Positions 3,385 to 64,000 of a DNA stretch of 64,000 nucleotides are shown one piece after another; the stretch's first letter is position 1; each line of letters begins with the position of its first letter. Source of the stretch: a virus (taxonomy: Duplodnaviria > Caudoviricetes); IMG/VR virus record IMGVR_UViG_3300037067_021792; one strand, given 5' to 3'. The position numbers and the translations under genes were made by a program. Under the pieces are notes generated by a model, which searched no databases, was not told the DNA's origin, and saw only the letters and a program-made list of their open reading frames with translations.

Positions 3385-4168
3385 AATTGATTGGAATTCC
3401 GTGAAAGGCAAGTTAGCACCAGCACCGACGTTTTTTCGGTTTTACCAGGGAATGTATGAAATTAGGCCAGTTGGTCCTGCTATCGAATTTGACAGGTTTT
3501 TCCTACCTCATGATTTTTCGCCAAGAACAATATGTGTTGATAAATCGATCACGGATGAAATTGTTACATCCGCTCAAAAAATTTCTATACATTTAGCTCC
3601 GAACCGGAGGTATGCAATTAATGCAATTGATATGTCAAATGACCAATTAAAAGTGCTTGAAGGAGGAAAGTCTATTTTTTCTCCCCTGGCTACATGGTCA
3701 GTTAGTACGAATCGAGATCCGGGAGGATTCGAAGCTCCAGTATGGCAAATCCTGGTGGCAGGAGAAGGTATCGCTCGAAGATATTCAATGGCGCAATTGG
3801 GTTATAAACATTTACCGAGTAAATATATTCTCCATTTCGCACATCCGGAAGTATCTTCGAGTATTGATTTCTCTACTTTATATGATTTAAAATCTTCGTG
3901 TAAAATTATTAGCTCCATTAAAATGGCAAATAAAATTTTGTTTGATAAAGAACCCTCTAACTATAAATATTCGAATCTTGGGGACTTTTGCCCTAACTAT
4001 AAATATTCGAATCTTGGGGTCAATACATCTAGCAATAATAGCGATAAGCATGATTATGATGGAATAATAGATGAAATAAACGCATTGAACGAAAATCCGG
4101 ATGATATAATACCTCAGTGCAGTAGATTTACTGGATTCATGGATGATATAGATGAATGCGAAATTTAG
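3377..4168 (+). CDS. putative phage gp32-like single-stranded DNA-binding protein
   Basis: RRYAINAID...LKVLEGGKSIF...GEGIARRY pattern and acidic C-terminal tail (MDDIDECEI); next to helicase; recognition by eye only. Confidence 0.45.
   Translation: MSEIDWNSVKGKLAPAPTFFRFYQGMYEIRPVGPAIEFDRFFLPHDFSPRTICVDKSITDEIVTSAQKISIHLAPNRRYAINAIDMSNDQLKVLEGGKSIFSPLATWSVSTNRDPGGFEAPVWQILVAGEGIARRYSMAQLGYKHLPSKYILHFAHPEVSSSIDFSTLYDLKSSCKIISSIKMANKILFDKEPSNYKYSNLGDFCPNYKYSNLGVNTSSNNSDKHDYDGIIDEINALNENPDDIIPQCSRFTGFMDDIDECEI
3957..4019 (+). repeat. 27-bp direct repeat (36-bp period) inside the SSB-like gene
   Basis: CTAACTATAAATATTCGAATCTTGGGG at 3957-3983 and 3993-4019; encodes NYKYSNLG twice. Confidence 0.9.
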
Positions 4169-7163: not shown

Positions 7164-8532
7164 TTCGCTGCAGTCAAGGAAACCGCTTGGTCTTCAGCCA
7201 AGCGGAGGAATTGACTGTCTCTCCTTTCTCTCAAAATATTTTGAACTTTTCTCAAATTCCACAAAGGAACTTGTATAATTTCTCCGTATGTAGTAATTAT
7301 GAGTAACTTAACCTACAACATTCAGTTACACACTCAATCAGCAGAAGACCATGTTCTCCTTCTGCAAACTCTTGTCGAACATCAAAAAATCTGGAACCAT
7401 ATCTCTAAAGATACCTTTCAACACCAGATGTTTAATAAGAAGATTATGTATGACCGCAACTACCATAAGTGCAGAAAACTCTTTCCTGATGCTCCCTCTC
7501 AAGTTATTATACGAGCAAAAGACTCTGTCTACGCCACCTACAAAGCTCTAAAAACCACAAAAATGCTCAACCAACTAGAAGAACCGTGTCAGCAAACCAA
7601 CTTAAGCATTCGGCTAGACAAGCGGCTCTACACCTTTCTTGACGGTAACAGAATTAAACTGACCACAACTGGAAAACGTATCATCTGTTCCTACCAGCCT
7701 TATGATAAGTTCGAGGAACTATTCTCAAAGTATTCTGCTTGTGATCCTCTCATCTTTATGAGGGACAACGAGTTTTGGCTCTCTGTGTCATTTGAAGTTC
7801 CAGAACCAACTTTTGTAGAAAACACCTGTCTCGGGGTAGACCTTGGCGAAAGGCGTTTCGCCGTGACATCAGAAGGTCTGGCTCTCACTGATAAAGATTT
7901 CCTCAGACAGAAACGTTCTCTCCGTTATCTCAAACGAGTCTTAAACTCCAAAAAGCAAAAGACTAACTCACACTCATCAAAGAGAAAACTGCACAAGCTT
8001 CGTAGACAAGAGAGAAACAAAAATAAGAACTTGTCTCACCATCTAGCTAACAAAATTCTTGAAACTAGTTCCAATACAATTGTTCTGGAAGACTTGTCCA
8101 ATTTGAAGAAAAAGAAATTGAAGAAGGATAATTACAAGAAGAGCAAGTCGTCCAAGAATAGACTTAGTCAGGTCCCCTTTGGGATGCTGTTGAGCATCCT
8201 GACCTACAAGGCACCTCTTCGAGGGAAGAGGATTAAAACGGTTAACCCTGCTTATACCAGTCAAAGAGATCATAGAGGTTTGGCTGGAGGAGAGCGTAAG
8301 GGATGTGGGTTTATATCTTCTGATGGAGTTATATTTGATGCAGATTGGAATGCAGCTATTAATATAGCTCGTAAGTATGTTCAGACTCAAGAAGCGAAAG
8401 GAGCTAAACACCCTGTCTCCTTTAATTTGCCGCTACGCGGCAGGTTAAACGTTACAGGCAGGCTGCTATCAACCAGCCAATCGTTCCTGTTAAGGAGCAA
8501 ACCCGACCGTCTTTAGCGGTTGGGTAGTTGAT
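7164..8532 (+). mobile_element. non-autonomous IS200/IS605-family (IS1341-like) TnpB element 1
   Basis: Left-end hairpin CAGTCAA..CCGCTTGG-TCTTCAG-CCAAGCGG..TTGACTG (7171-7217); right-end hairpin ACCCGACCG/CGGTTGGGT then AGTTGAT (8501-8532); no tnpA; boundary ambiguous within shared ATTTCG. Confidence 0.8.
7299..8516 (+). CDS. tnpB: RNA-guided endonuclease TnpB
   Basis: RuvC-I GVDLG, RuvC-II VLEDL, VNPAYTSQ, RuvC-III DADWNAAINI. Confidence 0.9.
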   Translation: MSNLTYNIQLHTQSAEDHVLLLQTLVEHQKIWNHISKDTFQHQMFNKKIMYDRNYHKCRKLFPDAPSQVIIRAKDSVYATYKALKTTKMLNQLEEPCQQTNLSIRLDKRLYTFLDGNRIKLTTTGKRIICSYQPYDKFEELFSKYSACDPLIFMRDNEFWLSVSFEVPEPTFVENTCLGVDLGERRFAVTSEGLALTDKDFLRQKRSLRYLKRVLNSKKQKTNSHSSKRKLHKLRRQERNKNKNLSHHLANKILETSSNTIVLEDLSNLKKKKLKKDNYKKSKSSKNRLSQVPFGMLLSILTYKAPLRGKRIKTVNPAYTSQRDHRGLAGGERKGCGFISSDGVIFDADWNAAINIARKYVQTQEAKGAKHPVSFNLPLRGRLNVTGRLLSTSQSFLLRSKPDRL

Positions 8533-28611: not shown

Positions 28612-30705
28612 TTGAACGCACTGATTACTGGAATTACTGGATTTGTAGGCAGCCATTTGTCTGAATATTTATTGTCTTTGGGTGATATGCAAATTCATGG
28701 CTTAGCTCGATGGCGGTCTCCAAAAGACAACATAAAACATATTGAGAATGAAATTCATTTACACTATGGCGATCTGACAGATTATCCGTCAATATTTGGT
28801 ATTATAAATGATGTCAAACCAGATTTCGTTTTTCATCTGGCTGCGCAGTCGGTGGCAGAAGATGAATTTATTCCAATTTTAAAATCAAAAAGCATGGAAT
28901 TAATCACCTTTGGCGAACTTTGGAAAACGTGCTCAAAAAGAAATAATATTAAATCTACTGTTCATAATGGAATCGAAACAGAAATAATAAATATAAAAAA
29001 CTCACAGATACGGGCTATAAGCTTTTTTTCTGGGATGGGAAATTGGTTACCAATCCAACAGATTACACGACATAAATATAATGGTGACATTGTTGAATTA
29101 AAGCAAAAATTTGGATCAATAAAAGTTACCCCCAATCATTGTGTAATAGATAAATATGGGCAATTGGCGTCTCCGATGGATAATCCAGAACTCCTGCCTA
29201 TGAGAAAGATTAATTATTATAATAAAAATGAGATAACGGAAGTACGGATCAAAACTACACGAAAGTATAAAAAATACAAAGATTGCTTTTTTATTCCAAA
29301 TATTCCCAACAAAAGAATTCCAGTTGTCTTGTCGGGAGAAAAACTTGATAGTTTTACAAGATTTTGTGCCGCTTACATATCGGAGGGATGTGCGCACTCA
29401 AGGGTAAAAAGAAAAAATTTTACAGTTACAATTAGTAATCAAAATAAGGAATGGCTAGCAGAAAGAAACAAAGAATTGCAGCATTTCAGCGAAGGCATAA
29501 CTGGTAGATATAGTACTGGTAAAAAGTCTGGTTATAAAGATGTTTTTAGTTTAACAATTACATCGGAATTACTTTATGATATAATAACAAAATATTGTGG
29601 AAGACTAAGCGAATTCAAACAAATTCCGAATTTTATTTTCCGTCTGCCGAAAGAGAAACAGCTTGATTTTCTAAGAGTTTTGGCTGAAGGTGACGGTTGC
29701 TACGAGGAAAGACAACGTTATGATATTTTAAGATATACTACGTCATCTAGAAAACTTGCTGCGCAATTGTGTTTACTATTAACCCTTATTGGAAAAGATT
29801 ATACAATATATGAGAATGGAGCGTTTTTTATTCGTGAGTGTGGTTTTTATCAGCCACGGCAAGGAGTAACCAAAAGAACAATTACCACTATGCCATACGA
29901 AGGTTATGTATATGATATTTCAATCGGAGGCCCAGAGATTTTCGCAGCAGGTGTAGGAAATCTTATAATTCATAACTCTTATGTTCCATACAGTTTCCAG
30001 GCTCCTGTTACAACTTTAGATGTTAACTGTCAGGGCACATGCAACTTATTAGAAGCTATTAAATTATCCAGAGTAAACGGAATAGATCCAATCATACTTG
30101 TATGCTCATCCTCAGAGGTGTATGGTCAGGTTCTTCCCGATGAAGTGCCTATCAATGAAAGCTGTCAGCTCAGGCCGGCCTCTCCGTATGCTGTTTCAAA
30201 AGTATGTGAGGATATGTTAGGATTTCAATATTATTTATCATGGGGATTGAAAGTTATACGAAGCCGTATGTTTACTCATTGTGGCCCAAGAAGAGGTGAT
30301 GTTTTTGTCGGATCTAATTTTGCCAAACAAATTGCCCAAATAGAGAAAGGCAAGCAAGAACCAGTAATTAAAGTTGGTAACCTTGACAGCATCAGGACCT
30401 TTGCTGATGTTCGAGATGTTGTAAAAGCATATTGGTTAATGGTAAATAAATGTTCAATAGGCGAAGTGTATAATATCGGCGGGAATGAAACAATGTCTAT
30501 AAAAGAAATGCTCAATCGGTTAATGAGCTTTTCTACACGAGGTGATATTAAGATAGAAGTAGACGCATCTAGATTGAGACCTTCAGATGTAACTCTTCAG
30601 ATACCAGATTGTTCCAAATTTAAAAAGGAAACTGGATGGCAACCAGAAATTAGTATTGACCAGATGTTAAACGACATGTTAAATTATTGGAGATTACGAG
30701 TATGA
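28612..30705 (+). CDS. gmd: GDP-mannose 4,6-dehydratase containing an intein
   Basis: LITGITGFVGS, GDLTD, FHLAAQ|SYVPYSF after splicing, SSSEVYG, PASPYAVSK, GNLDSIR, RPSDV; extein 321 aa. Confidence 0.92.
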   Translation: MNALITGITGFVGSHLSEYLLSLGDMQIHGLARWRSPKDNIKHIENEIHLHYGDLTDYPSIFGIINDVKPDFVFHLAAQSVAEDEFIPILKSKSMELITFGELWKTCSKRNNIKSTVHNGIETEIINIKNSQIRAISFFSGMGNWLPIQQITRHKYNGDIVELKQKFGSIKVTPNHCVIDKYGQLASPMDNPELLPMRKINYYNKNEITEVRIKTTRKYKKYKDCFFIPNIPNKRIPVVLSGEKLDSFTRFCAAYISEGCAHSRVKRKNFTVTISNQNKEWLAERNKELQHFSEGITGRYSTGKKSGYKDVFSLTITSELLYDIITKYCGRLSEFKQIPNFIFRLPKEKQLDFLRVLAEGDGCYEERQRYDILRYTTSSRKLAAQLCLLLTLIGKDYTIYENGAFFIRECGFYQPRQGVTKRTITTMPYEGYVYDISIGGPEIFAAGVGNLIIHNSYVPYSFQAPVTTLDVNCQGTCNLLEAIKLSRVNGIDPIILVCSSSEVYGQVLPDEVPINESCQLRPASPYAVSKVCEDMLGFQYYLSWGLKVIRSRMFTHCGPRRGDVFVGSNFAKQIAQIEKGKQEPVIKVGNLDSIRTFADVRDVVKAYWLMVNKCSIGEVYNIGGNETMSIKEMLNRLMSFSTRGDIKIEVDASRLRPSDVTLQIPDCSKFKKETGWQPEISIDQMLNDMLNYWRLRV
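28849..29976 (+). mobile_element. intein with LAGLIDADG homing endonuclease (376 aa)
   Basis: Starts SVAEDE, block B VTPNHCV, FCAAYISEG and FLRVLAEGDG, YVYDISI, ends IIHN followed by +1 Ser. Confidence 0.92.
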
Positions 30706-39870: not shown

Positions 39871-41179
39871 CACTCCGCAGGGACTAAAGTCCCACAGATT
39901 CTCTAATCACTGAACATTCTTGCCCCGCCATTTCTAGCAAAGTAGAGGATTGTTCTCCTAGAGCGTTTATTCCCGCAAGCCCTACGGTATATCTATTTAA
40001 AATATTTTTGCTAGCATTTAAGTCTCTGTCTTCTACGTCCCCACAACAAGGGCATTTATGTATTCTAACACTTAAATCTTTCCTAACCATCGAACCACAA
40101 GAGCTACATAATTGGCTGGTATTCTTGGGATTAACTAGCTCCACTTTCCCACCGGCACTCTCAGCCTTGTAGGTAGTGTATTGAACTAATTTATTCCAAG
40201 AACAGTCACTTATGCTTTTAGCTAACTTATGGTTTTTAACCATATTAGAAACTGTTAAATCTTCAAAAACTATGGTTTCAAAGCTCTTTGCTAGACAAGA
40301 AGACGCTTTGTGTAAATAATCATCTCTTTGAAATCGTATTTTTCTGTGTAGACGTGCTACTTTGATTCGTTGCTTGTTCCTTCTGTTGCTAGTCTTTGTG
40401 GGTTTTCTTGAAAAAGTTCTCTGTGTTCTTGCGAGTGAATGTTCTGTTTTCTTTAAGAACTTAGGATTCTCTATAGTTTCTCCAGTAGATAAAGCACATA
40501 AAGTTTTAATCCCTACATCTATTCCTACAACAGAACCAGGATTAGAATGTATGATAAATTCTTGCTCTATATCACAAGCAAAGATAACGTACCAATGATC
40601 TACATCTCGTACCACTTGGCACGTTTTTATATCTCCTAAAATTGGCCTACTATAAACCATCTTAACACAACCAATTTTAGAAAGTTCTACTCTTTTATTA
40701 TTTGATGTAATTCTAAAGCCCAACTGAGGATAAGTAAAAGAACGATATCTATTAAAACTCTTAAAGCGTGGAAATCCTGCTTTTTTTGTTCCCTGTTTGC
40801 ATCGATCGAAAAATCTTTTATAAGATTTATCGAGCCTTTTAAGAACGTTTTGTAGCACCTGAGAATAAACTTGAGACTGGTAATGATTCTTATTTTTAGC
40901 TAAGTTGTTCGCCTGCTGGTTATAAGTTAAAGTTTTTTGAGTGTTTTGATAAGCCTCTTTTCTTTGTTCAAGTGCATCGTTATATGTGTGCCTACAAGTA
41001 TTTAGAGTGTTTATAAGTAGTTGCTCTTGTTTTCGAGTGGGATAAAGCCTGTATTTAAAAGATTTCATTGGCATTTCTATTGAATTATACAAGGAAATTG
41101 AGTATAATTCCTCGTAAGAAATTTAAAAGTTCGCTTATATCTACAGGGGTTAAAACCCCGTAGTTTTACGCTCAGGAGT
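39867..41179 (-). mobile_element. non-autonomous IS200/IS605-family TnpB element 2 (1313 bp)
   Basis: Minus strand: TTAT then ACTCCTGAGCGTAAAACTACGGGGTTTTAACCCCTGTAGATATAAGCG (left end); GAATCTGTGGGACTTTAGTCCCTGCGGAGTGTCAA (right end); no tnpA. Confidence 0.88.
39884..41074 (-). CDS. tnpB: RNA-guided endonuclease TnpB
   Basis: FKYRLYPT, GFPRFKS, GIDVG, VFEDL, TSQLCSSCG..CPCCG, DRDLNASKNI. Confidence 0.95.
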   Translation of the reverse strand: MPMKSFKYRLYPTRKQEQLLINTLNTCRHTYNDALEQRKEAYQNTQKTLTYNQQANNLAKNKNHYQSQVYSQVLQNVLKRLDKSYKRFFDRCKQGTKKAGFPRFKSFNRYRSFTYPQLGFRITSNNKRVELSKIGCVKMVYSRPILGDIKTCQVVRDVDHWYVIFACDIEQEFIIHSNPGSVVGIDVGIKTLCALSTGETIENPKFLKKTEHSLARTQRTFSRKPTKTSNRRNKQRIKVARLHRKIRFQRDDYLHKASSCLAKSFETIVFEDLTVSNMVKNHKLAKSISDCSWNKLVQYTTYKAESAGGKVELVNPKNTSQLCSSCGSMVRKDLSVRIHKCPCCGDVEDRDLNASKNILNRYTVGLAGINALGEQSSTLLEMAGQECSVIRESVGL

Positions 41180-60472: not shown

Positions 60473-61458
60473 AAGCTATTGTTACTGGTGGATGCGGTTT
60501 TATTGGATTTAATTTGTGTAAAAAATTAATTGAAACAGAATATAGCAATATTCAGGTTATCGATGATTTATCAACAGGATTTAGGCAAAACAAAATAAAT
60601 GGGGTAGATTACCACTATATCTCTATTCTTAATCACGATTTCAAGAATATAATTCATGCATTTAAGCCGGACGTAATTTTTCATATAGCAGCAGTTCCAC
60701 GAGTTTCTTATTCTGTTGAATTTCCAGTTGAAACACTGAAGGCCAATGTTCTTGCTACGGTTGAAGTTTTAGATGCTGTGCGGACCACAAAGAAAAAGCA
60801 GGCTAGAGTCATATTTAGCTCTAGCAGCTCAGTATATGGTGGGGCCGATCATTTGCCAACCCCCGAATCTTGTCCAAGAAACCCCAAATCGCCATATGCT
60901 CTCGAAAAAGCCGAGAGTGAAATGTGGTTATCTATGTACGCGTCTCTATACGGAGTAGATGCTGTAAGTCTTCGCTATTTTAATGTCTTTGGTCCGCGCT
61001 CTAGGTGGGGCGGAGGATACTCGACTGTTTTGAGCGCTTGGCTATATTCGTTGTATATAGATAAAAAAATAGTTCCATATTTAGAGGGAGACGGAAAACA
61101 ATCGAGAGATTTTTGCTACGTAGATAACGTGGTTCAGGCCAATATTTTTGCTGCAAGACATTCCAACAAATTTGCCGGTGAAGTTTATAATATAGCTCAG
61201 GGCGAAAGGCATTCATTACTGGAGTGTAAAGAAATTATAGAAAAAATCTCTGGTCAAGCACTAAATTTAGAATATAAACCAGCGCGAATTGGCGATGTAG
61301 ATCATACATTAGCAGATATATCAGCAGCCAGAAGGGATTTGGGGTATAATCCATCGGTTGATTTTGAATCTCAAGTAAAAGAAATGGCTGATTGGTATAA
61401 GGGAGAATATACCCGTGAAGTCTCCGCTGGCAAAACTATTACTTCTGTATTACAATAA
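60469..61458 (+). CDS. NAD-dependent epimerase (UDP-hexose/HexNAc 4-epimerase-like)
   Basis: TGGCGFIG, DDLSTG, SSSSVYG, SPYALEK, RYFNVFGP, GDGKQSRDF. Confidence 0.92.
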   Translation: MKAIVTGGCGFIGFNLCKKLIETEYSNIQVIDDLSTGFRQNKINGVDYHYISILNHDFKNIIHAFKPDVIFHIAAVPRVSYSVEFPVETLKANVLATVEVLDAVRTTKKKQARVIFSSSSSVYGGADHLPTPESCPRNPKSPYALEKAESEMWLSMYASLYGVDAVSLRYFNVFGPRSRWGGGYSTVLSAWLYSLYIDKKIVPYLEGDGKQSRDFCYVDNVVQANIFAARHSNKFAGEVYNIAQGERHSLLECKEIIEKISGQALNLEYKPARIGDVDHTLADISAARRDLGYNPSVDFESQVKEMADWYKGEYTREVSAGKTITSVLQ

Positions 61459-62398
61459 AGTAACAAATGAAGCATTTAACAAACTTGCTCTGCATAATCA
61501 CGAATTTGAAATAATTCCATTTAACCTCGGGCAATTCGGGGATAAAATGGATATTTTAGACGAAAAAACAGTAGAAAAAATCCTCTTACAATATATGCCC
61601 TTCGATGCTGCCGTTGTCGGGGATGTATTTTGGCCAACGGGACAATATATTTGCAAATGGTGCAGAAAGCATGGCGTTAAAAGCTTTTTTTTGCAACATG
61701 GGCAGTGGATTTATGTTACTAATAAGAAGAACCCAGAATTTTTACCCAATTGCACGTTTCTATACGGTGATAACGTAAAAGACATGGTGAGTTTATGGCC
61801 CTACTCTGCTCGATCAAAAGTCGCGGTTACGGGCAGCCCCAAATATGACAATATCATTCCAAATCCGTCGGGGTCATATGTTTATTTCTGTCCACCAGTT
61901 ATGTACGAAAAAGTTAATGGCACTCATCGTAGCAATCCATTATCTTCAAGGTTATTAAGAACTTTGTCGGGTATAGATAAAAAAGTAGAATTACTAATTC
62001 AACCGCATTATCGAGAGGATAATATTTCTGGATTAAAACAGATATTTAGTGCTGCAGAATTCTCTGATCCTAAAAATGATCCAATTTGTCTCATCAAAAA
62101 ATCATACGCAGTGTTAACTCACCGTGATTCTACAACTGTGCTCGATGCTATCGCGTGTGGTAAAAAATCTTTTTTGATCAATTTTAAAAACCAGTATAGA
62201 TCATTTTACAAAACTGGGTATTTCGGCGATTTTGCAGTAGAGAATGGATGGCCAGATGAGTGCAAAGAACGGATACAGACTTATGTAGCAGGTGAATTGC
62301 CTGATAATTATGAAATACTATCTAAGCCATACTTATATTTGGGAAATTCATCTGAAAAAATATTTGCCGTCATGAAGGAGTTACTAAATGTCTCATAG
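61415..62398 (+). CDS. GT-B fold transferase (TagF/sialyltransferase-like), candidate ulosonate transferase
   Basis: FFLQHG, VTGSPKYD, QPHYRE, DSTTVLDA..CGK. Confidence 0.55.
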   Translation: MKSPLAKLLLLYYNKVTNEAFNKLALHNHEFEIIPFNLGQFGDKMDILDEKTVEKILLQYMPFDAAVVGDVFWPTGQYICKWCRKHGVKSFFLQHGQWIYVTNKKNPEFLPNCTFLYGDNVKDMVSLWPYSARSKVAVTGSPKYDNIIPNPSGSYVYFCPPVMYEKVNGTHRSNPLSSRLLRTLSGIDKKVELLIQPHYREDNISGLKQIFSAAEFSDPKNDPICLIKKSYAVLTHRDSTTVLDAIACGKKSFLINFKNQYRSFYKTGYFGDFAVENGWPDECKERIQTYVAGELPDNYEILSKPYLYLGNSSEKIFAVMKELLNVS

Positions 62399-62657
62399 GG
62401 TAACTATAATGTGTGATAGCTGTGGTCAGGAATACTTATTGCCACCAGAAATGGAACTTCCGCCATATTGGATGGCAATCCAGATAGCTGTTTCAAATAA
62501 GGATGGCGAAATACCAATTGATGTCACAGATATAATGACTCATATTTGTAGCCAAGAATGTTTGAAAGATTTTGCAACAGGCGATATAATAAAAAGTAGG
62601 ATTGCGTTGATAGATAAGCTATCAGATGATGAGATAGAGGATGAACATGATATCTAA
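62388..62657 (+). CDS. small zinc-binding hypothetical protein
   Basis: CDSCG ... HICSQEC. Confidence 0.6.
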   Translation: MSHRVTIMCDSCGQEYLLPPEMELPPYWMAIQIAVSNKDGEIPIDVTDIMTHICSQECLKDFATGDIIKSRIALIDKLSDDEIEDEHDI

Positions 62658-63198
62658 AGAAATCTGGCAACAACTTGCCAATTATTTTCGAAGTAAGCTC
62701 GTAGCAAAAATTGATGTTGGGCAACTATTTGTGCACAATTCTATGCTACAACAGTCTCTTGAAATTCCGCACAAAGGTTTTTATGTTGGCGTGATCGACA
62801 GCGTGGGTAATCAGATTATTCGGGAAGGATTCTTATCAGAAAATTTGACCAATGTGATGAATAGCGCTGACATTGTTTTGGAAAATATTTATGGAAATTT
62901 AATTAACAACGGAGTTACTGTTTCCAAGCTTCAAACAAGTACTTTTTATTTCTACATCATAAATGATGTAGTCTATTTGGCAAATCCTATGGCATGGGAT
63001 GATAAACAGGATGGGGTTTATTTTCAGTGGGGCCAGAATTACAAGTCAATGTTTTTGCCGTATCAAGTTAAATTGATGAATATGCCCAAAACGGATATTT
63101 TGGACAGATTATGTGCTTCGTCTGGCACGGTATCTAATCTTTGGAAATTACCGGAGGGGTTAATATTTGCACTTAAAAATGAATCTCACAGCACATAG
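62641..63198 (+). CDS. divergent AMMECR1-domain protein (AmmeMemoRadiSam protein A-like)
   Basis: GFYV, DGVYFQWG..KSMFLP.QV, ILDRLC..SG...LW; canonical LRGCIG replaced by IREGF. Confidence 0.65.
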   Translation: MNMISKEIWQQLANYFRSKLVAKIDVGQLFVHNSMLQQSLEIPHKGFYVGVIDSVGNQIIREGFLSENLTNVMNSADIVLENIYGNLINNGVTVSKLQTSTFYFYIINDVVYLANPMAWDDKQDGVYFQWGQNYKSMFLPYQVKLMNMPKTDILDRLCASSGTVSNLWKLPEGLIFALKNESHST

Positions 63199-63314
63199 GA
63201 ATACGGCCAATTTCCAAAGCATGGGCAGGTGAATTTCTTGAAGGATACACAAAAGGCTGGTTTGAAGCCGATGATGAGATTGGTTGAAATTCATGATATC
63301 TGAGGAGAATATGA

Positions 63315-63704
63315 GTGATAACAGTGACGAATCGAGCTGCTGATCAAATTAAGAAGATTATCAAAGATTCAGGATCGCAATGTTCCGTAGACTCCACTGG
63401 CGCTCCAGGTTCGCGGTATTATCTGAGTGTTGGCGTTAAGGCAGGTGGATGCTCCGGGTTTGAATATACAATAGATGTACAAGAACAATGTCCTGTCGAT
63501 TATATTAAAAATAATAGCGAAGGCATAGACATAATCTGTGATCCCAAAAGCTTTATTTATCTAGATGGGTGCCAAATCGATTTTGTTGAGAGTATGATGA
63601 AATCCGGTTTTGTATTTCTAAACCCTAATGCACAATACAATTGTGGATGTGGCAAAAGTTTCAGTGCTGCTTCCAGCTGTGGTGGGTGCCCAGAAAATTC
63701 TTAA
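63315..63704 (+). CDS. iscA: HesB/IscA-family Fe-S cluster carrier
   Basis: ITVTNRAA, GVKAGGCSGFEY, DPKS..YLDG..IDF, NPNA..CGCGKSF. Confidence 0.92.
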   Translation: MITVTNRAADQIKKIIKDSGSQCSVDSTGAPGSRYYLSVGVKAGGCSGFEYTIDVQEQCPVDYIKNNSEGIDIICDPKSFIYLDGCQIDFVESMMKSGFVFLNPNAQYNCGCGKSFSAASSCGGCPENS

Positions 63705-63721
63705 AAATTTAGAGGGTTTTC

Positions 63722-63749
63722 TTGAAATCTGTAGAATATAGAGTATAAT
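63722..63749 (+). promoter_or_regulatory. sigma70-like promoter upstream of the RNA region
   Basis: TTGAAA-16 nt-TATAAT. Confidence 0.55.
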
Positions 63750-63752
63750 AGT

Positions 63753-63849
63753 ATGCTCACAACCTAAAAGGTTGGATTACAAACTTGCGGAAGAGTGAAT
63801 TGAGTCCCGAATGTGGGCTCAAAAAGTCCAGTCGAACTTTTGTGAGTGT
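63753..63849 (+). ncRNA. putative structured RNA, unit A
   Basis: Outer stem 63753-62/63840-49, inner stem GGTTGGATT/AGTCCAGTC, hairpin TTGAGTCC/GGGCTCAA; motif shared with unit B. Confidence 0.5.
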
Positions 63850-63865
63850 TCTTTTAAAATTGAAT

Positions 63866-64000
63866 AAAAGTTGCGCCCTAATGGCTTGGCTTACAAACAA
63901 TTAGCTCATTGGTAGAGCGACACTCCTAATAAAGTGATGGTAGCAGGTTCAAATCCTGTATTGTTAAACAAAAACGGCCTCGTAAACTTGCGCAACTTTT
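63866..64000 (+). ncRNA. putative structured RNA, unit B (encloses the tRNA-like element; may run past the window end)
   Basis: Perfect 11-bp inverted repeat AAAAGTTGCGC / GCGCAACTTTT; motif shared with unit A. Confidence 0.5.
63895..63967 (+). tRNA. degenerate tRNA-like element (Ile-like, nominal anticodon AAT)
   Basis: AACAAT/ATTGTT acceptor stem, GCTC-ATTGGTA-GAGC D arm, GCAGG-TTCAAAT-CCTGT T arm; 4-bp anticodon stem with 8-nt loop; A1.A72 mismatch; no CCA. Confidence 0.65.

What the first reader, a model, noticed from the sequence alone, without database searches (positions are those of the whole stretch)
63722..64000. Repeated RNA scaffold, one copy enclosing a tRNA-like element
Seen: directly after a sigma70-like promoter come two units with the same architecture but unrelated outer-stem sequences. 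Each has an outer stem, then CCTAA-n4-TTGG-n-TTACAAAC (63763-84 vs 63877-98, 18/22 identical), then a cargo, then AAAAA..CC..AACTT, then the closing stem. The cargo is a hairpin pair in unit A and a whole tRNA-like cloverleaf in unit B. Different stem sequences with conserved loops are the covariation expected of a functional RNA. I do not recognise the family. Inference: a processing scaffold (RNase III-type site or small ribozyme) that releases cargo RNAs, or the 5' domains of a large phage ncRNA with embedded tRNA (as reported for GOLLD).
Basis: partly seen in the sequence, partly recalled or inferred. Interest (0 to 1): 0.75.

Follow-up and report, generated by a model that had tools for sequence, protein, structure and literature searches.

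The report
Phage Y-like RNAs clamping a tRNA
The two repeated RNA units are real members of a conserved family of small RNAs that share one docking "handle" and carry different inserts (here a hairpin pair and a whole odd tRNA). They are most likely partner RNAs ("Y RNAs") of a very divergent Ro60 ring protein that the same giant phage encodes 3 kb downstream.

Summary
The window is part of a ~268-kb jumbo-phage-like metagenome contig. After a near-consensus sigma-70 promoter come unit A (63756-63846) and unit B (63870-63996), and a third unit lies 300 nt beyond the window end.

All three share one handle: a 7-bp outer stem, a YCUANNN / RAACUU internal loop, a ~8-bp inner helix and a UUACAAAC junction. 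A covariance model finds 17 such units in six related phages. In them, 95.5% of pair cells form standard pairs and 13 of 14 pairs show changes on both sides.

The units always sit upstream of, and on the same strand as, a ~600-aa protein. Its predicted fold (top 12 PDB matches) and its sequence profile match only Ro60/Rsr. Weaker handle matches lie upstream of this gene in distant phages and two bacterial MAGs, where some inserts are YrlA-type permuted tRNA mimics.

Best reading (0.7): these are a new variant of Y RNA whose handle docks the Ro60-like protein. No Rfam family fits and I found no paper describing it. Earlier notes of this scan report similar handle/Ro60-like pairs on other DNA.

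The parts
63722..63749 (+). Sigma-70-type promoter TTGAAA-16-TATAAT. The predicted start falls at or next to the first base of unit A.
   Evidence: 11 of 12 matches. The same layout (-10 box, 6-9 nt, then P1) is seen in L085, L086 and L087.
63756..63846 (+). Unit A, a Y-like RNA with hairpin cargo. P1 63756-62 / 63840-46. Internal loop CCUAAAA 63763-69 / GAACUU 63834-39. P2 63770-78 / 63825-33. Junction ACAAAC 63779-84. Cargo 63785-63824.
   Evidence: Fold. Covariance model R1 scores 67.5 bits, E 1.7e-16. Orthologues at L085:4587-4663 and L086:6338-6426.
63870..63996 (+). Unit B, the same handle clamping a whole tRNA. P1 63870-76 / 63990-96. Loop CCUAAUG 63877-83 / AAACUU 63984-89. P2 63884-90 / 63977-83. 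Junction ACAAAC 63893-98.
   Evidence: R1 scores 34.4 bits, E 7e-7. Six orthologous 125-127-nt units align end to end (A3). Pair counts.
63895..63967 (+). tRNA cargo of unit B. Its 6-bp acceptor stem starts inside the invariant ACAAAC. Positions 1:72 are A.A. The anticodon loop has 8 nt (CCUAAUAA). No CCA is encoded.
   Evidence: Rfam tRNA 48.2 bits with one insert in the anticodon loop. ARAGORN could not name an anticodon.

Best explanation
Units A and B, together with a third unit just past the window end, are small non-coding RNAs of the Y-RNA kind. They are partner RNAs of a very divergent Ro60/Rsr-type ring protein (597 aa), encoded 2.6 kb downstream of the last unit on the same strand (L028:13643-15436).

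The shared scaffold is the protein-docking handle. It consists of P1, the YCUANNN / RAACUU internal loop, P2 and the UUACAAAC junction. The variable cargo is the effector module, as in known modular Y RNAs. In unit B the cargo is a complete but non-canonical tRNA held shut at its acceptor end, so it acts as a displayed tRNA shape and not as a normal decoding tRNA.

Shown here:
- the handle, its covariation and its conservation;
- its genomic linkage to the gene;
- the Ro60 fold and profile match of the protein;
- YrlA-type cargo in relatives.

Inferred: that the protein binds the handle, and what the particle does. Following the role of known Y RNAs, it would gate the Ro60 ring or tether it to tRNA-recognising host or phage factors.
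For: 1. Handle family. Model R1 finds 17 non-redundant units at 26-74 bits in L028, L085, L086, L087, L089 and L090. All are on the + strand in the one intergenic region upstream of the gene cluster. There are none elsewhere in the 64-kb window, and nothing reaches 20 bits in 700 kb of control loci.

2. Covariation. 95.5% of cells are paired and 13 of 14 pairs change on both sides; slid controls give 27-47%. In the six tRNA-bearing units all six helices hold.

3. The protein.
- Weak sequence hits to the Ro60 vWA domain (Pfam PF25045, E 8.6e-4), to Ro60 1yvp (E 0.02) and to phrog_850 'RNA-binding protein'.
- An AF2 model (pLDDT 88.5) whose top 12 PDB matches are all Ro60/Rsr/TROVE over about 600 columns (E 3e-11 to 1e-7, TM 0.55-0.68), including Deinococcus Rsr and Thermus phage phiLo Ro60.
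- A family profile that hits only four distinct PDB sequences, all Ro60/Rsr/TROVE (E 2e-6 to 3e-5).
- Invariant MIDAS-type residues D392, S394, S396, T461 and D485.

4. Linkage. Handle matches lie upstream on the same strand in 10 of the 11 loci with DNA that carry this protein. Matches outside the close clade are weaker (13-30 bits). They include a 32%-identical relative (L092), the published 595-kb uncultured phage LR756511.1 (L095), and Planctomycetaceae and Desulfococcaceae MAGs (L094, L093). Among the gene neighbours tested, only the Ro60-like gene and the homologue of the unknown 283-aa protein are shared with L092.

5. Cargo in relatives is a YrlA-type permuted tRNA mimic. Rfam YrlA scores 38.2 bits (E 9.5e-7) in L094 and 27 and 24.5 bits in L089. 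The matches cover only the tRNA-like part of the model (positions 24-84 or 30-81), not its Rsr-binding stem.

6. Literature. Y RNAs lie within 4 kb of Ro60 on the same strand, are modular and often mimic tRNA (PMC4201824). Phage phiLo Ro60 binds two upstream Y-like RNAs that carry a CGAA motif in a bulge between the 5'-3' stem (PMC12135203).
Against: - No binding data exist and no transcript data could be obtained.
- Pfam TROVE does not match the protein, and its identity to solved Ro60 proteins is only ~13%.
- The units in the window do not match Rfam YrlA or Y_RNA even at E<=10.
- The CGAA-like motif ([C]GAACUU) lies on the 3' strand, whereas the published GNCGAAN0-1G / GGUCCGA motif lies on the 5' strand.
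- One related locus (L091) has the protein but no unit within 8 kb.
- A second unknown protein (283 aa) also co-occurs in the distant locus L092.
- Unit B could still be cut by RNase P and RNase Z to release a tRNA.
Confidence: 0.7

Rival explanations
1. Processing scaffold: the paired leader and trailer (P1/P2) is a maturation signal cut by RNase III, RNase E or RNase P/Z. The cut releases the tRNA and small hairpin RNAs from a polycistronic transcript, and the handle has no role afterwards.
For: The units lie in one promoter-to-terminator block together with ordinary-looking tRNA genes in relatives, for example L089:2745-2818 at 61 bits. AU/U-rich spacers follow most units. M. smegmatis YrlA is an RNase P substrate (bioRxiv 10.1101/312249).
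Against: - The helices are 7 and ~8 bp split by a 7x6 loop, short for RNase III.
- The loop and junction nucleotides are invariant while the stems vary. That pattern indicates sequence-specific recognition.
- Units with a 10-21-nt cargo have nothing obvious to release.
- Permuted copies have P1 closed by a tetraloop inside a tRNA body.
- The clamped tRNAs often have odd anticodon loops, and positions 1:72 are unpaired in 5 of 6.
Confidence: 0.1
2. The handle is a docking site for a different factor: a host protein, or another conserved phage protein such as the unknown 283-aa or 193-aa neighbours. Its linkage to the Ro60-like gene is only operon hitch-hiking.
For: The 283-aa protein has a homologue in every phage locus compared by tblastn, including distant L092 (E 2e-13). 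L093, L094 and L095 were not compared. Its function is unknown. The 193-aa gene directly follows the RNA block in the close clade and is absent from L091, which also lacks units.
Against: The 193-aa, 298-aa, 324-aa and 118-aa neighbours are absent from L092, which still has at least five units. The 298-aa and 324-aa proteins look like sugar enzymes. In L092, L093, L094 and L095 the matches lie within about 4 kb upstream of the Ro60-like gene, and the nearest ones abut it. Ro60 is the only neighbour with a known RNA-stem-binding precedent.
Confidence: 0.12
3. The handle is a catalytic or splice-like element. It would be a small self-cleaving ribozyme, or a cut-and-ligate site that circularises the cargo, for example to turn permuted tRNA genes into working tRNAs.
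For: Relatives carry circularly permuted tRNA-like cargo inside the handle. The YrlA literature raises this possibility for permuted forms.
Against: No ribozyme family matches at E<=10. The window's unit B cargo is not permuted, and units A and C carry no tRNA. No splicing endonuclease or RtcB was seen in the ~84 kb held.
Confidence: 0.04

Closest known systems
YrlA-type bacterial and phage Y RNAs bound by Rsr/Ro60 (Rfam RF02553; Chen et al. 2014, PMC4201824; YrlA structure, bioRxiv 10.1101/312249)
   Same: Several modular small RNAs are encoded within a few kb upstream of, and on the same strand as, a Ro60-fold gene. A long stem joins the 5' and 3' ends. The effector module mimics tRNA. In relatives (L094, L089) the cargo matches the YrlA tRNA-like core at 24-38 bits.
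   Different: The stem is a different handle (YCUANNN / RAACUU loop plus UUACAAAC) that RF02553 does not recognise. The CGAA-like motif is on the 3' strand. In the window the tRNA is whole, keeps its anticodon arm and is clamped at the acceptor end, whereas YrlA is a permuted tRNA joined through the anticodon stem. The partner protein is a separate clade that Pfam TROVE misses and that carries a beta-rich insert.
Thermus phage phiLo Ro60 with Yrl1 and Yrl2 (PMC12135203; PDB 9KOP, 9L5Y)
   Same: A phage-encoded Ro60 with two or more Y-like RNAs just upstream, each with a 5'-3' stem flanking a bulge that holds a CGAA motif. 9L5Y and 9KOP are among the best fold matches.
   Different: There is no sequence similarity between the RNAs. 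The paper mentions no tRNA-like cargo in phiLo (0 occurrences of 'tRNA-like'). The phiLo protein is a recognisable TROVE protein.
Circularly permuted tRNA genes (Cyanidioschyzon type, as discussed in bioRxiv 10.1101/312249)
   Same: Relatives (L089, L092, L094) carry tRNA bodies written 3' half first, with the acceptor stem closed by a loop.
   Different: The window's tRNA is not permuted. No BHB motif or splicing endonuclease was seen.
GOLLD and ROOL large phage ncRNAs
   Same: They are phage-borne, structured and lie near tRNAs.
   Different: No Rfam match at any threshold used. These are 70-165-nt independent units, not one large RNA.
Dictyostelid Class I RNAs (PMC7919456)
   Same: A short 5'-3' stem with a conserved ~11-nt motif next to its 5' strand and a variable remainder. 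This is the same layout as P2 plus UUACAAAC.
   Different: The comparison rests on layout only.

Membership tests
Y RNA (Ro60/Rsr partner RNAs, incl. YrlA RF02553) | Encoded within ~4 kb of a Ro60 orthologue, on the same strand | tested here: met
   The last unit ends 2.6 kb upstream of L028:13643-15436, on the same strand. The same holds in 10 of 11 loci.
Y RNA (Ro60/Rsr partner RNAs, incl. YrlA RF02553) | The partner protein is a Ro60: a HEAT-repeat (TROVE) ring plus a vWA domain with MIDAS | tested here: met
   The fold's top 12 PDB matches are all Ro60/Rsr, full length. The family profile hits only Ro60/Rsr/TROVE chains. MIDAS residues are invariant. Caveat: no Pfam TROVE hit appeared up to E<=1 (filters drop most matches above E 0.1), and identity is ~13%.
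Y RNA (Ro60/Rsr partner RNAs, incl. YrlA RF02553) | A long stem formed by the 5' and 3' ends, interrupted by a bulge or internal loop | tested here: met
   P1, a 7x6 loop and P2, with covariation.
Y RNA (Ro60/Rsr partner RNAs, incl. YrlA RF02553) | Ro60-binding motif GGUCCGA / GNCGAAN0-1G on the 5' strand | tested here: not met
   The 5' strand carries YCUANNN-G...GGC-UUACAAAC. The CGAA-like element ([C]GAACUU / GACUU) is on the 3' strand (compared).
Y RNA (Ro60/Rsr partner RNAs, incl. YrlA RF02553) | Reaches the Rfam gathering score of YrlA (69 bits) or Y_RNA | tested here: not met
   No hit in the window region at E<=10. Relatives reach only 24-38 bits, over the tRNA-like core alone.
Y RNA (Ro60/Rsr partner RNAs, incl. 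YrlA RF02553) | Physically bound by the Ro60 protein | not testable with these tools
   This needs RIP, EMSA or cryo-EM.
Canonical decoding tRNA (cargo of unit B) | Cloverleaf above the Rfam tRNA threshold | tested here: met
   48.2 bits against a threshold of 29. The anticodon and T stems covary.
Canonical decoding tRNA (cargo of unit B) | 7-nt anticodon loop, paired 1:72, and free or CCA-ready ends | tested here: not met
   The loop has 8 nt (CCUAAUAA). Positions 1:72 are unpaired in 5 of 6 orthologues. Both ends run into the handle and no CCA is encoded.
GOLLD / ROOL / known self-cleaving ribozymes | Match to the Rfam covariance model | tested here: not met
   only tRNA passes, and nothing else relevant appears at E<=10.

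The most novel reading that the evidence does not exclude
The handle and the Ro60-like ring form a display platform. The phage presents whole tRNAs, permuted tRNA bodies or other RNA shapes as baits to capture, block or redirect host enzymes that read or cut tRNAs, such as anticodon nucleases, modification enzymes or repair enzymes.

The fast-changing, often non-canonical anticodon loops sit on an otherwise invariant acceptor and D-arm body. Across orthologues they read CCUAAUAA, UUUUUAAC, UUU, UGU, UUG and UCG. On this reading that variation would be the trace of an arms race.
Probability: 0.15. Interest if true: 0.85.

Novelty: new variant of a known kind. Interest (0 to 1): 0.68.

Why it matters
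What Y RNAs do, and why bacterial ones imitate tRNA, is still open. This system offers three things:

- a new and easily recognised docking handle;
- a Ro60 clade that domain databases miss;
- natural swap experiments, in which the same handle carries a whole tRNA, permuted tRNA bodies, bare hairpins or almost nothing.

It occurs in huge phages and in some bacteria. That makes the question of what the tRNA-like module recruits directly testable: express the protein with each RNA and identify what co-purifies. It also flags handle-clamped tRNAs in phage tRNA counts as probable mimics and not decoders.

Tried and rejected
- Whole-collection scans with the 22-nt motif found 27 scattered single hits in genome contigs, below the ~70 I estimated by hand for chance, and 0 in viral contigs.
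- A looser 15-base pattern gave 55 single hits in viral contigs. Model R1 scored all of these loci below 20 bits, so they are chance matches.
- blastn of the window's last 3 kb (61000-64000) against GenBank phages found no match.
- No whole genome is held for this window, and the ENA record cannot be searched by handle.
- The 193-aa neighbour has no relatives beyond itself, and the search for related loci with it or with the IscA-like protein found nothing.
- I considered CRISPR-repeat or RNA anti-CRISPR mimicry, because each unit has a 29-30-nt 5' half ending in ACAAAC. I dropped it because the first 7 nt differ in every unit and pair with the unit's own 3' end.
- I considered the 11-nt tetraloop receptor (CCUAAG/UAUGG). 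I dropped it because the opposite strand is RAACUU, not UAUGG.
- The Protein Atlas gave no usable lead for the 283-aa protein. It pointed to glycosyltransferases for the 324-aa protein.

Full report
**What is in the window**

- A near-consensus promoter, TTGAAA-16-TATAAT at 63722-63749 (11 of 12 matches), is followed 7 nt after the -10 box by unit A (63756-63846), and then by unit B (63870-63996).
- Both units open with a 7-bp stem of unrelated sequence, CTCACAA/TTGTGAG and GTTGCGC/GCGCAAC.
- Both carry CCTAA-n4-TTGG-n-TTACAAAC (18/22 identical). This motif occurs nowhere else in the 64 kb.
- Both close with ...CC..RAACTT before the 3' strand of the stem.
- Unit A's cargo folds into two hairpins.
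- Unit B's cargo is a cloverleaf at 63895-63967 that scores 48.2 bits as a tRNA.
- That tRNA is odd. Its anticodon loop has 8 nt (CCUAAUAA), positions 1:72 are A.A, its acceptor stem begins inside the conserved ACAAAC, and no CCA is encoded.

**Context beyond the window**

- An exact-protein look-up places the window on a 268-kb metagenome contig (L028; window coordinate = L028 coordinate + 53314). A second contig, L029, is identical over the region.
- The content looks like a jumbo phage. There are 60 kb of sugar-modification genes, two TnpB genes and an intein. ThyX, dCMP deaminase and a topoisomerase lie downstream. Relatives sit on contigs of 250-595 kb, including the GenBank 'uncultured phage' LR756511.1.
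- I saw no capsid or terminase gene in the 84 kb held, so 'phage' is probable but not shown.
- The non-coding region runs 695 nt, to L028:11084.
- It holds a third unit, C (L028:10981-11054). Unit C has the same architecture and only a 17-nt cargo. Its P1 is followed by a U run, so it probably also terminates the block.
- Between units B and C lie other small structured RNAs. These are listed under Noticed in passing.

**The handle is a conserved, covarying RNA module**

- Homologues of a 597-aa neighbour led to syntenic loci in related contigs (L085, L086, L087, L089, L090). Each has a 0.7-1.8-kb gene-free block at the same place.
- A covariance model built from seven short units (A4, model R1) finds 17 non-redundant units at 26-74 bits in these six loci.
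- All are on the + strand inside that block. None occur elsewhere in the window.
- Nothing reaches 20 bits in 700 kb of control loci that had been picked for chance matches to the 5' motif.
- On the resulting alignment, 95.5% of pair cells form standard pairs. Thirteen of 14 pairs show changes on both sides, and P1 is paired in 100% of cells with 2-5 pair types per position. Sliding the 3' partner by 1-3 columns drops pairing to 27-47%. This alignment was fitted to the model, which favours the structure. However, the P1 partners were also found independently by a plain 7-mer search.
- Consensus: P1 (7 bp, free sequence) - Y-C-U-A-N-N-N - G-NNN(N)-GGC - N-U-A-C-A-A-A-C - cargo - GCC-NNN-C - R-A-A-C-U-U - P1'.
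- The invariant positions are CU(A) in the 5' loop, ACU in the 3' loop and UACAAAC. The last AAC of the junction always starts the first cargo helix.

**The tRNA-bearing unit**

- Six orthologous 125-127-nt units align end to end (A3).
- All six helices hold across these units. The anticodon stem changes on both sides at 5 of 5 pairs and the T stem at 3 of 5.
- The D stem never varies, and 5 of the 7 acceptor-stem pairs never vary. Positions 1:72 are unpaired in 5 of 6.
- The anticodon loops differ in every phage: 8-nt CCUAAUAA, 8-nt UUUUUAAC, then anticodons UUU, UGU, UUG and UCG.
- So the cloverleaf is under selection, but its acceptor and D-arm sequence behaves as part of the handle and its anticodon is free to change. 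This is not what an ordinary decoding tRNA looks like.

**The partner**

- The 597-aa protein (L028:13643-15436) lies 2.6 kb downstream of the last unit on the same strand.
- By sequence it gives only sub-threshold hints: Pfam vWA_Ro60 at E 8.6e-4, Ro60 1yvp at E 0.02, and phrog_850 'RNA-binding protein' at 8e-7.
- An AlphaFold model from a 49-sequence alignment has pLDDT 88.5.
- All of its top 12 PDB matches are Ro60/Rsr/TROVE structures aligned over about 600 columns (E 3e-11 to 1e-7, TM 0.55-0.68). They include Xenopus and human Ro60, Deinococcus Rsr and Thermus phage phiLo Ro60. Generic vWA domains follow only after these.
- A profile of the family hits only four distinct PDB sequences, all Ro60/Rsr/TROVE (E 2e-6 to 3e-5).
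- MIDAS-type residues are invariant.
- Pfam TROVE does not match, and there is a beta-rich insert at residues ~101-182. The protein therefore belongs to a separate, very divergent Ro60 clade.

**Linkage across large distances**

Outside the close clade the handle matches are weaker (13-30 bits), but they again lie upstream of the gene on the same strand:

- L092, with a protein 32% identical, has at least five units (15-27 bits).
- LR756511.1 (L095) has seven.
- A Planctomycetaceae MAG (L094) has three, and a Desulfococcaceae MAG (L093) has one.

That makes 10 of the 11 loci with DNA. Only L091 has none within 8 kb. By tblastn, the Ro60-like gene and the homologue of an unknown 283-aa protein are the only neighbours shared between the window's locus and L092. 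The 298-aa and 324-aa genes in between look like sugar enzymes.

**Link to known Y RNAs**

- In L094 the cargo of one unit matches Rfam YrlA at 38.2 bits (E 9.5e-7). Two L089 units match at 27.2 and 24.5 bits.
- In every case the match covers only the tRNA-like core of the model (positions 24-84 or 30-81), never the Rsr-binding stem.
- These relatives therefore carry a YrlA-type permuted tRNA mimic (T arm, closed acceptor stem, D arm) on this different handle.
- In L092 the handle also appears circularly permuted: P1 is closed by a CUUG tetraloop and the whole module sits inside a tRNA body. That is the behaviour expected of a self-contained docking module.
- Published Y RNAs lie within 4 kb of Ro60 on the same strand, are modular and often mimic tRNA (PMC4201824).
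- Phage phiLo Ro60 binds two upstream Y-like RNAs with a CGAA motif in a bulge (PMC12135203).
- Here a CGAA-like element ([C]GAACUU) also sits at the internal loop, but on the 3' strand, whereas the published motif is on the 5' strand.

**Verdict**

The best reading (0.7) is a new variant of the Ro60-Y RNA particle: a new handle, a Ro60 clade that domain databases miss, and a new topology in which a whole tRNA is clamped at its acceptor end. Binding and function are inferred and not shown.

The rivals are:
- a pure processing scaffold (0.10);
- a handle read by another protein (0.12);
- a catalytic or circularising element (0.04).

No GOLLD, ROOL or ribozyme family matches. I found no paper describing this handle.

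After I had reached this reading, I found that earlier notes of this scan report similar handle/Ro60-like pairs in other phages. The handle they quote reads ACAGCAA. Here it reads ACAAAC.

Noticed in passing
L028:10693-10745 (window-equivalent 64007-64059). Also L085:4707-4760, L086:6477-6690 (three copies) and L087:6078-6130.: Small three-way-junction RNAs whose 7-bp terminal stem is followed by an encoded ACCA or GCCA, like a tRNA 3' end. The second hairpin often has a GUCA loop. No Rfam match. They lie at conserved positions in the same RNA block.
   Followed up: partly
L028:10746-10831 (just past the window end): A degenerate tRNA-like RNA with a perfect T arm (AAAGG-UUCAACU-CCUUU). ARAGORN calls it only at a relaxed threshold. 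The same position in relatives holds tRNA-Met(CAU)-like genes (L089:2745-2818, 61 bits).
   Followed up: partly
L028:10884-10955: A Shine-Dalgarno-like AAAGGGG followed by a 23-codon hydrophobic ORF (MFFTWFFEFISLV...). Its 3' half lies inside a 12-bp hairpin. It was not obviously conserved in the relatives I read.
   Followed up: no
window 28612-30705 (+): A GDP-mannose-4,6-dehydratase-like gene interrupted by an intein with a LAGLIDADG endonuclease domain.
   Followed up: no
window 7299-8516 (+) and 39884-41092 (-): Two TnpB / IS605 OrfB (Cas12f-like) genes inside the sugar-gene cluster.
   Followed up: no
window about 9000-63200: Most of the window looks like one long + strand run of sugar-modification genes. 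Those sampled include glycosyltransferases, epimerases/dehydratases, B12-binding and SPASM radical SAM enzymes, CMP-sugar synthesis and a TPP enzyme. This is unusually large for a phage.
   Followed up: partly
L086:2387-2604: A group I intron (Rfam 93.6 bits) next to a NifU-like gene in a related phage.
   Followed up: no
L085-L093, a few kb downstream of the Ro60-like gene. Also the P0100 locus.: A ThiF (E1-like) gene, sometimes with a JAB deubiquitinase-like gene, recurs downstream of the Ro60-like gene in phages and bacteria, but not in the window's own contig.
   Followed up: no
L089:2369-2730 and 3660-3806; L092:4700-4850: Handle units in relatives enclose circularly permuted tRNA bodies. 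In one case the handle is closed by a tetraloop and inserted into a tRNA.
   Followed up: partly
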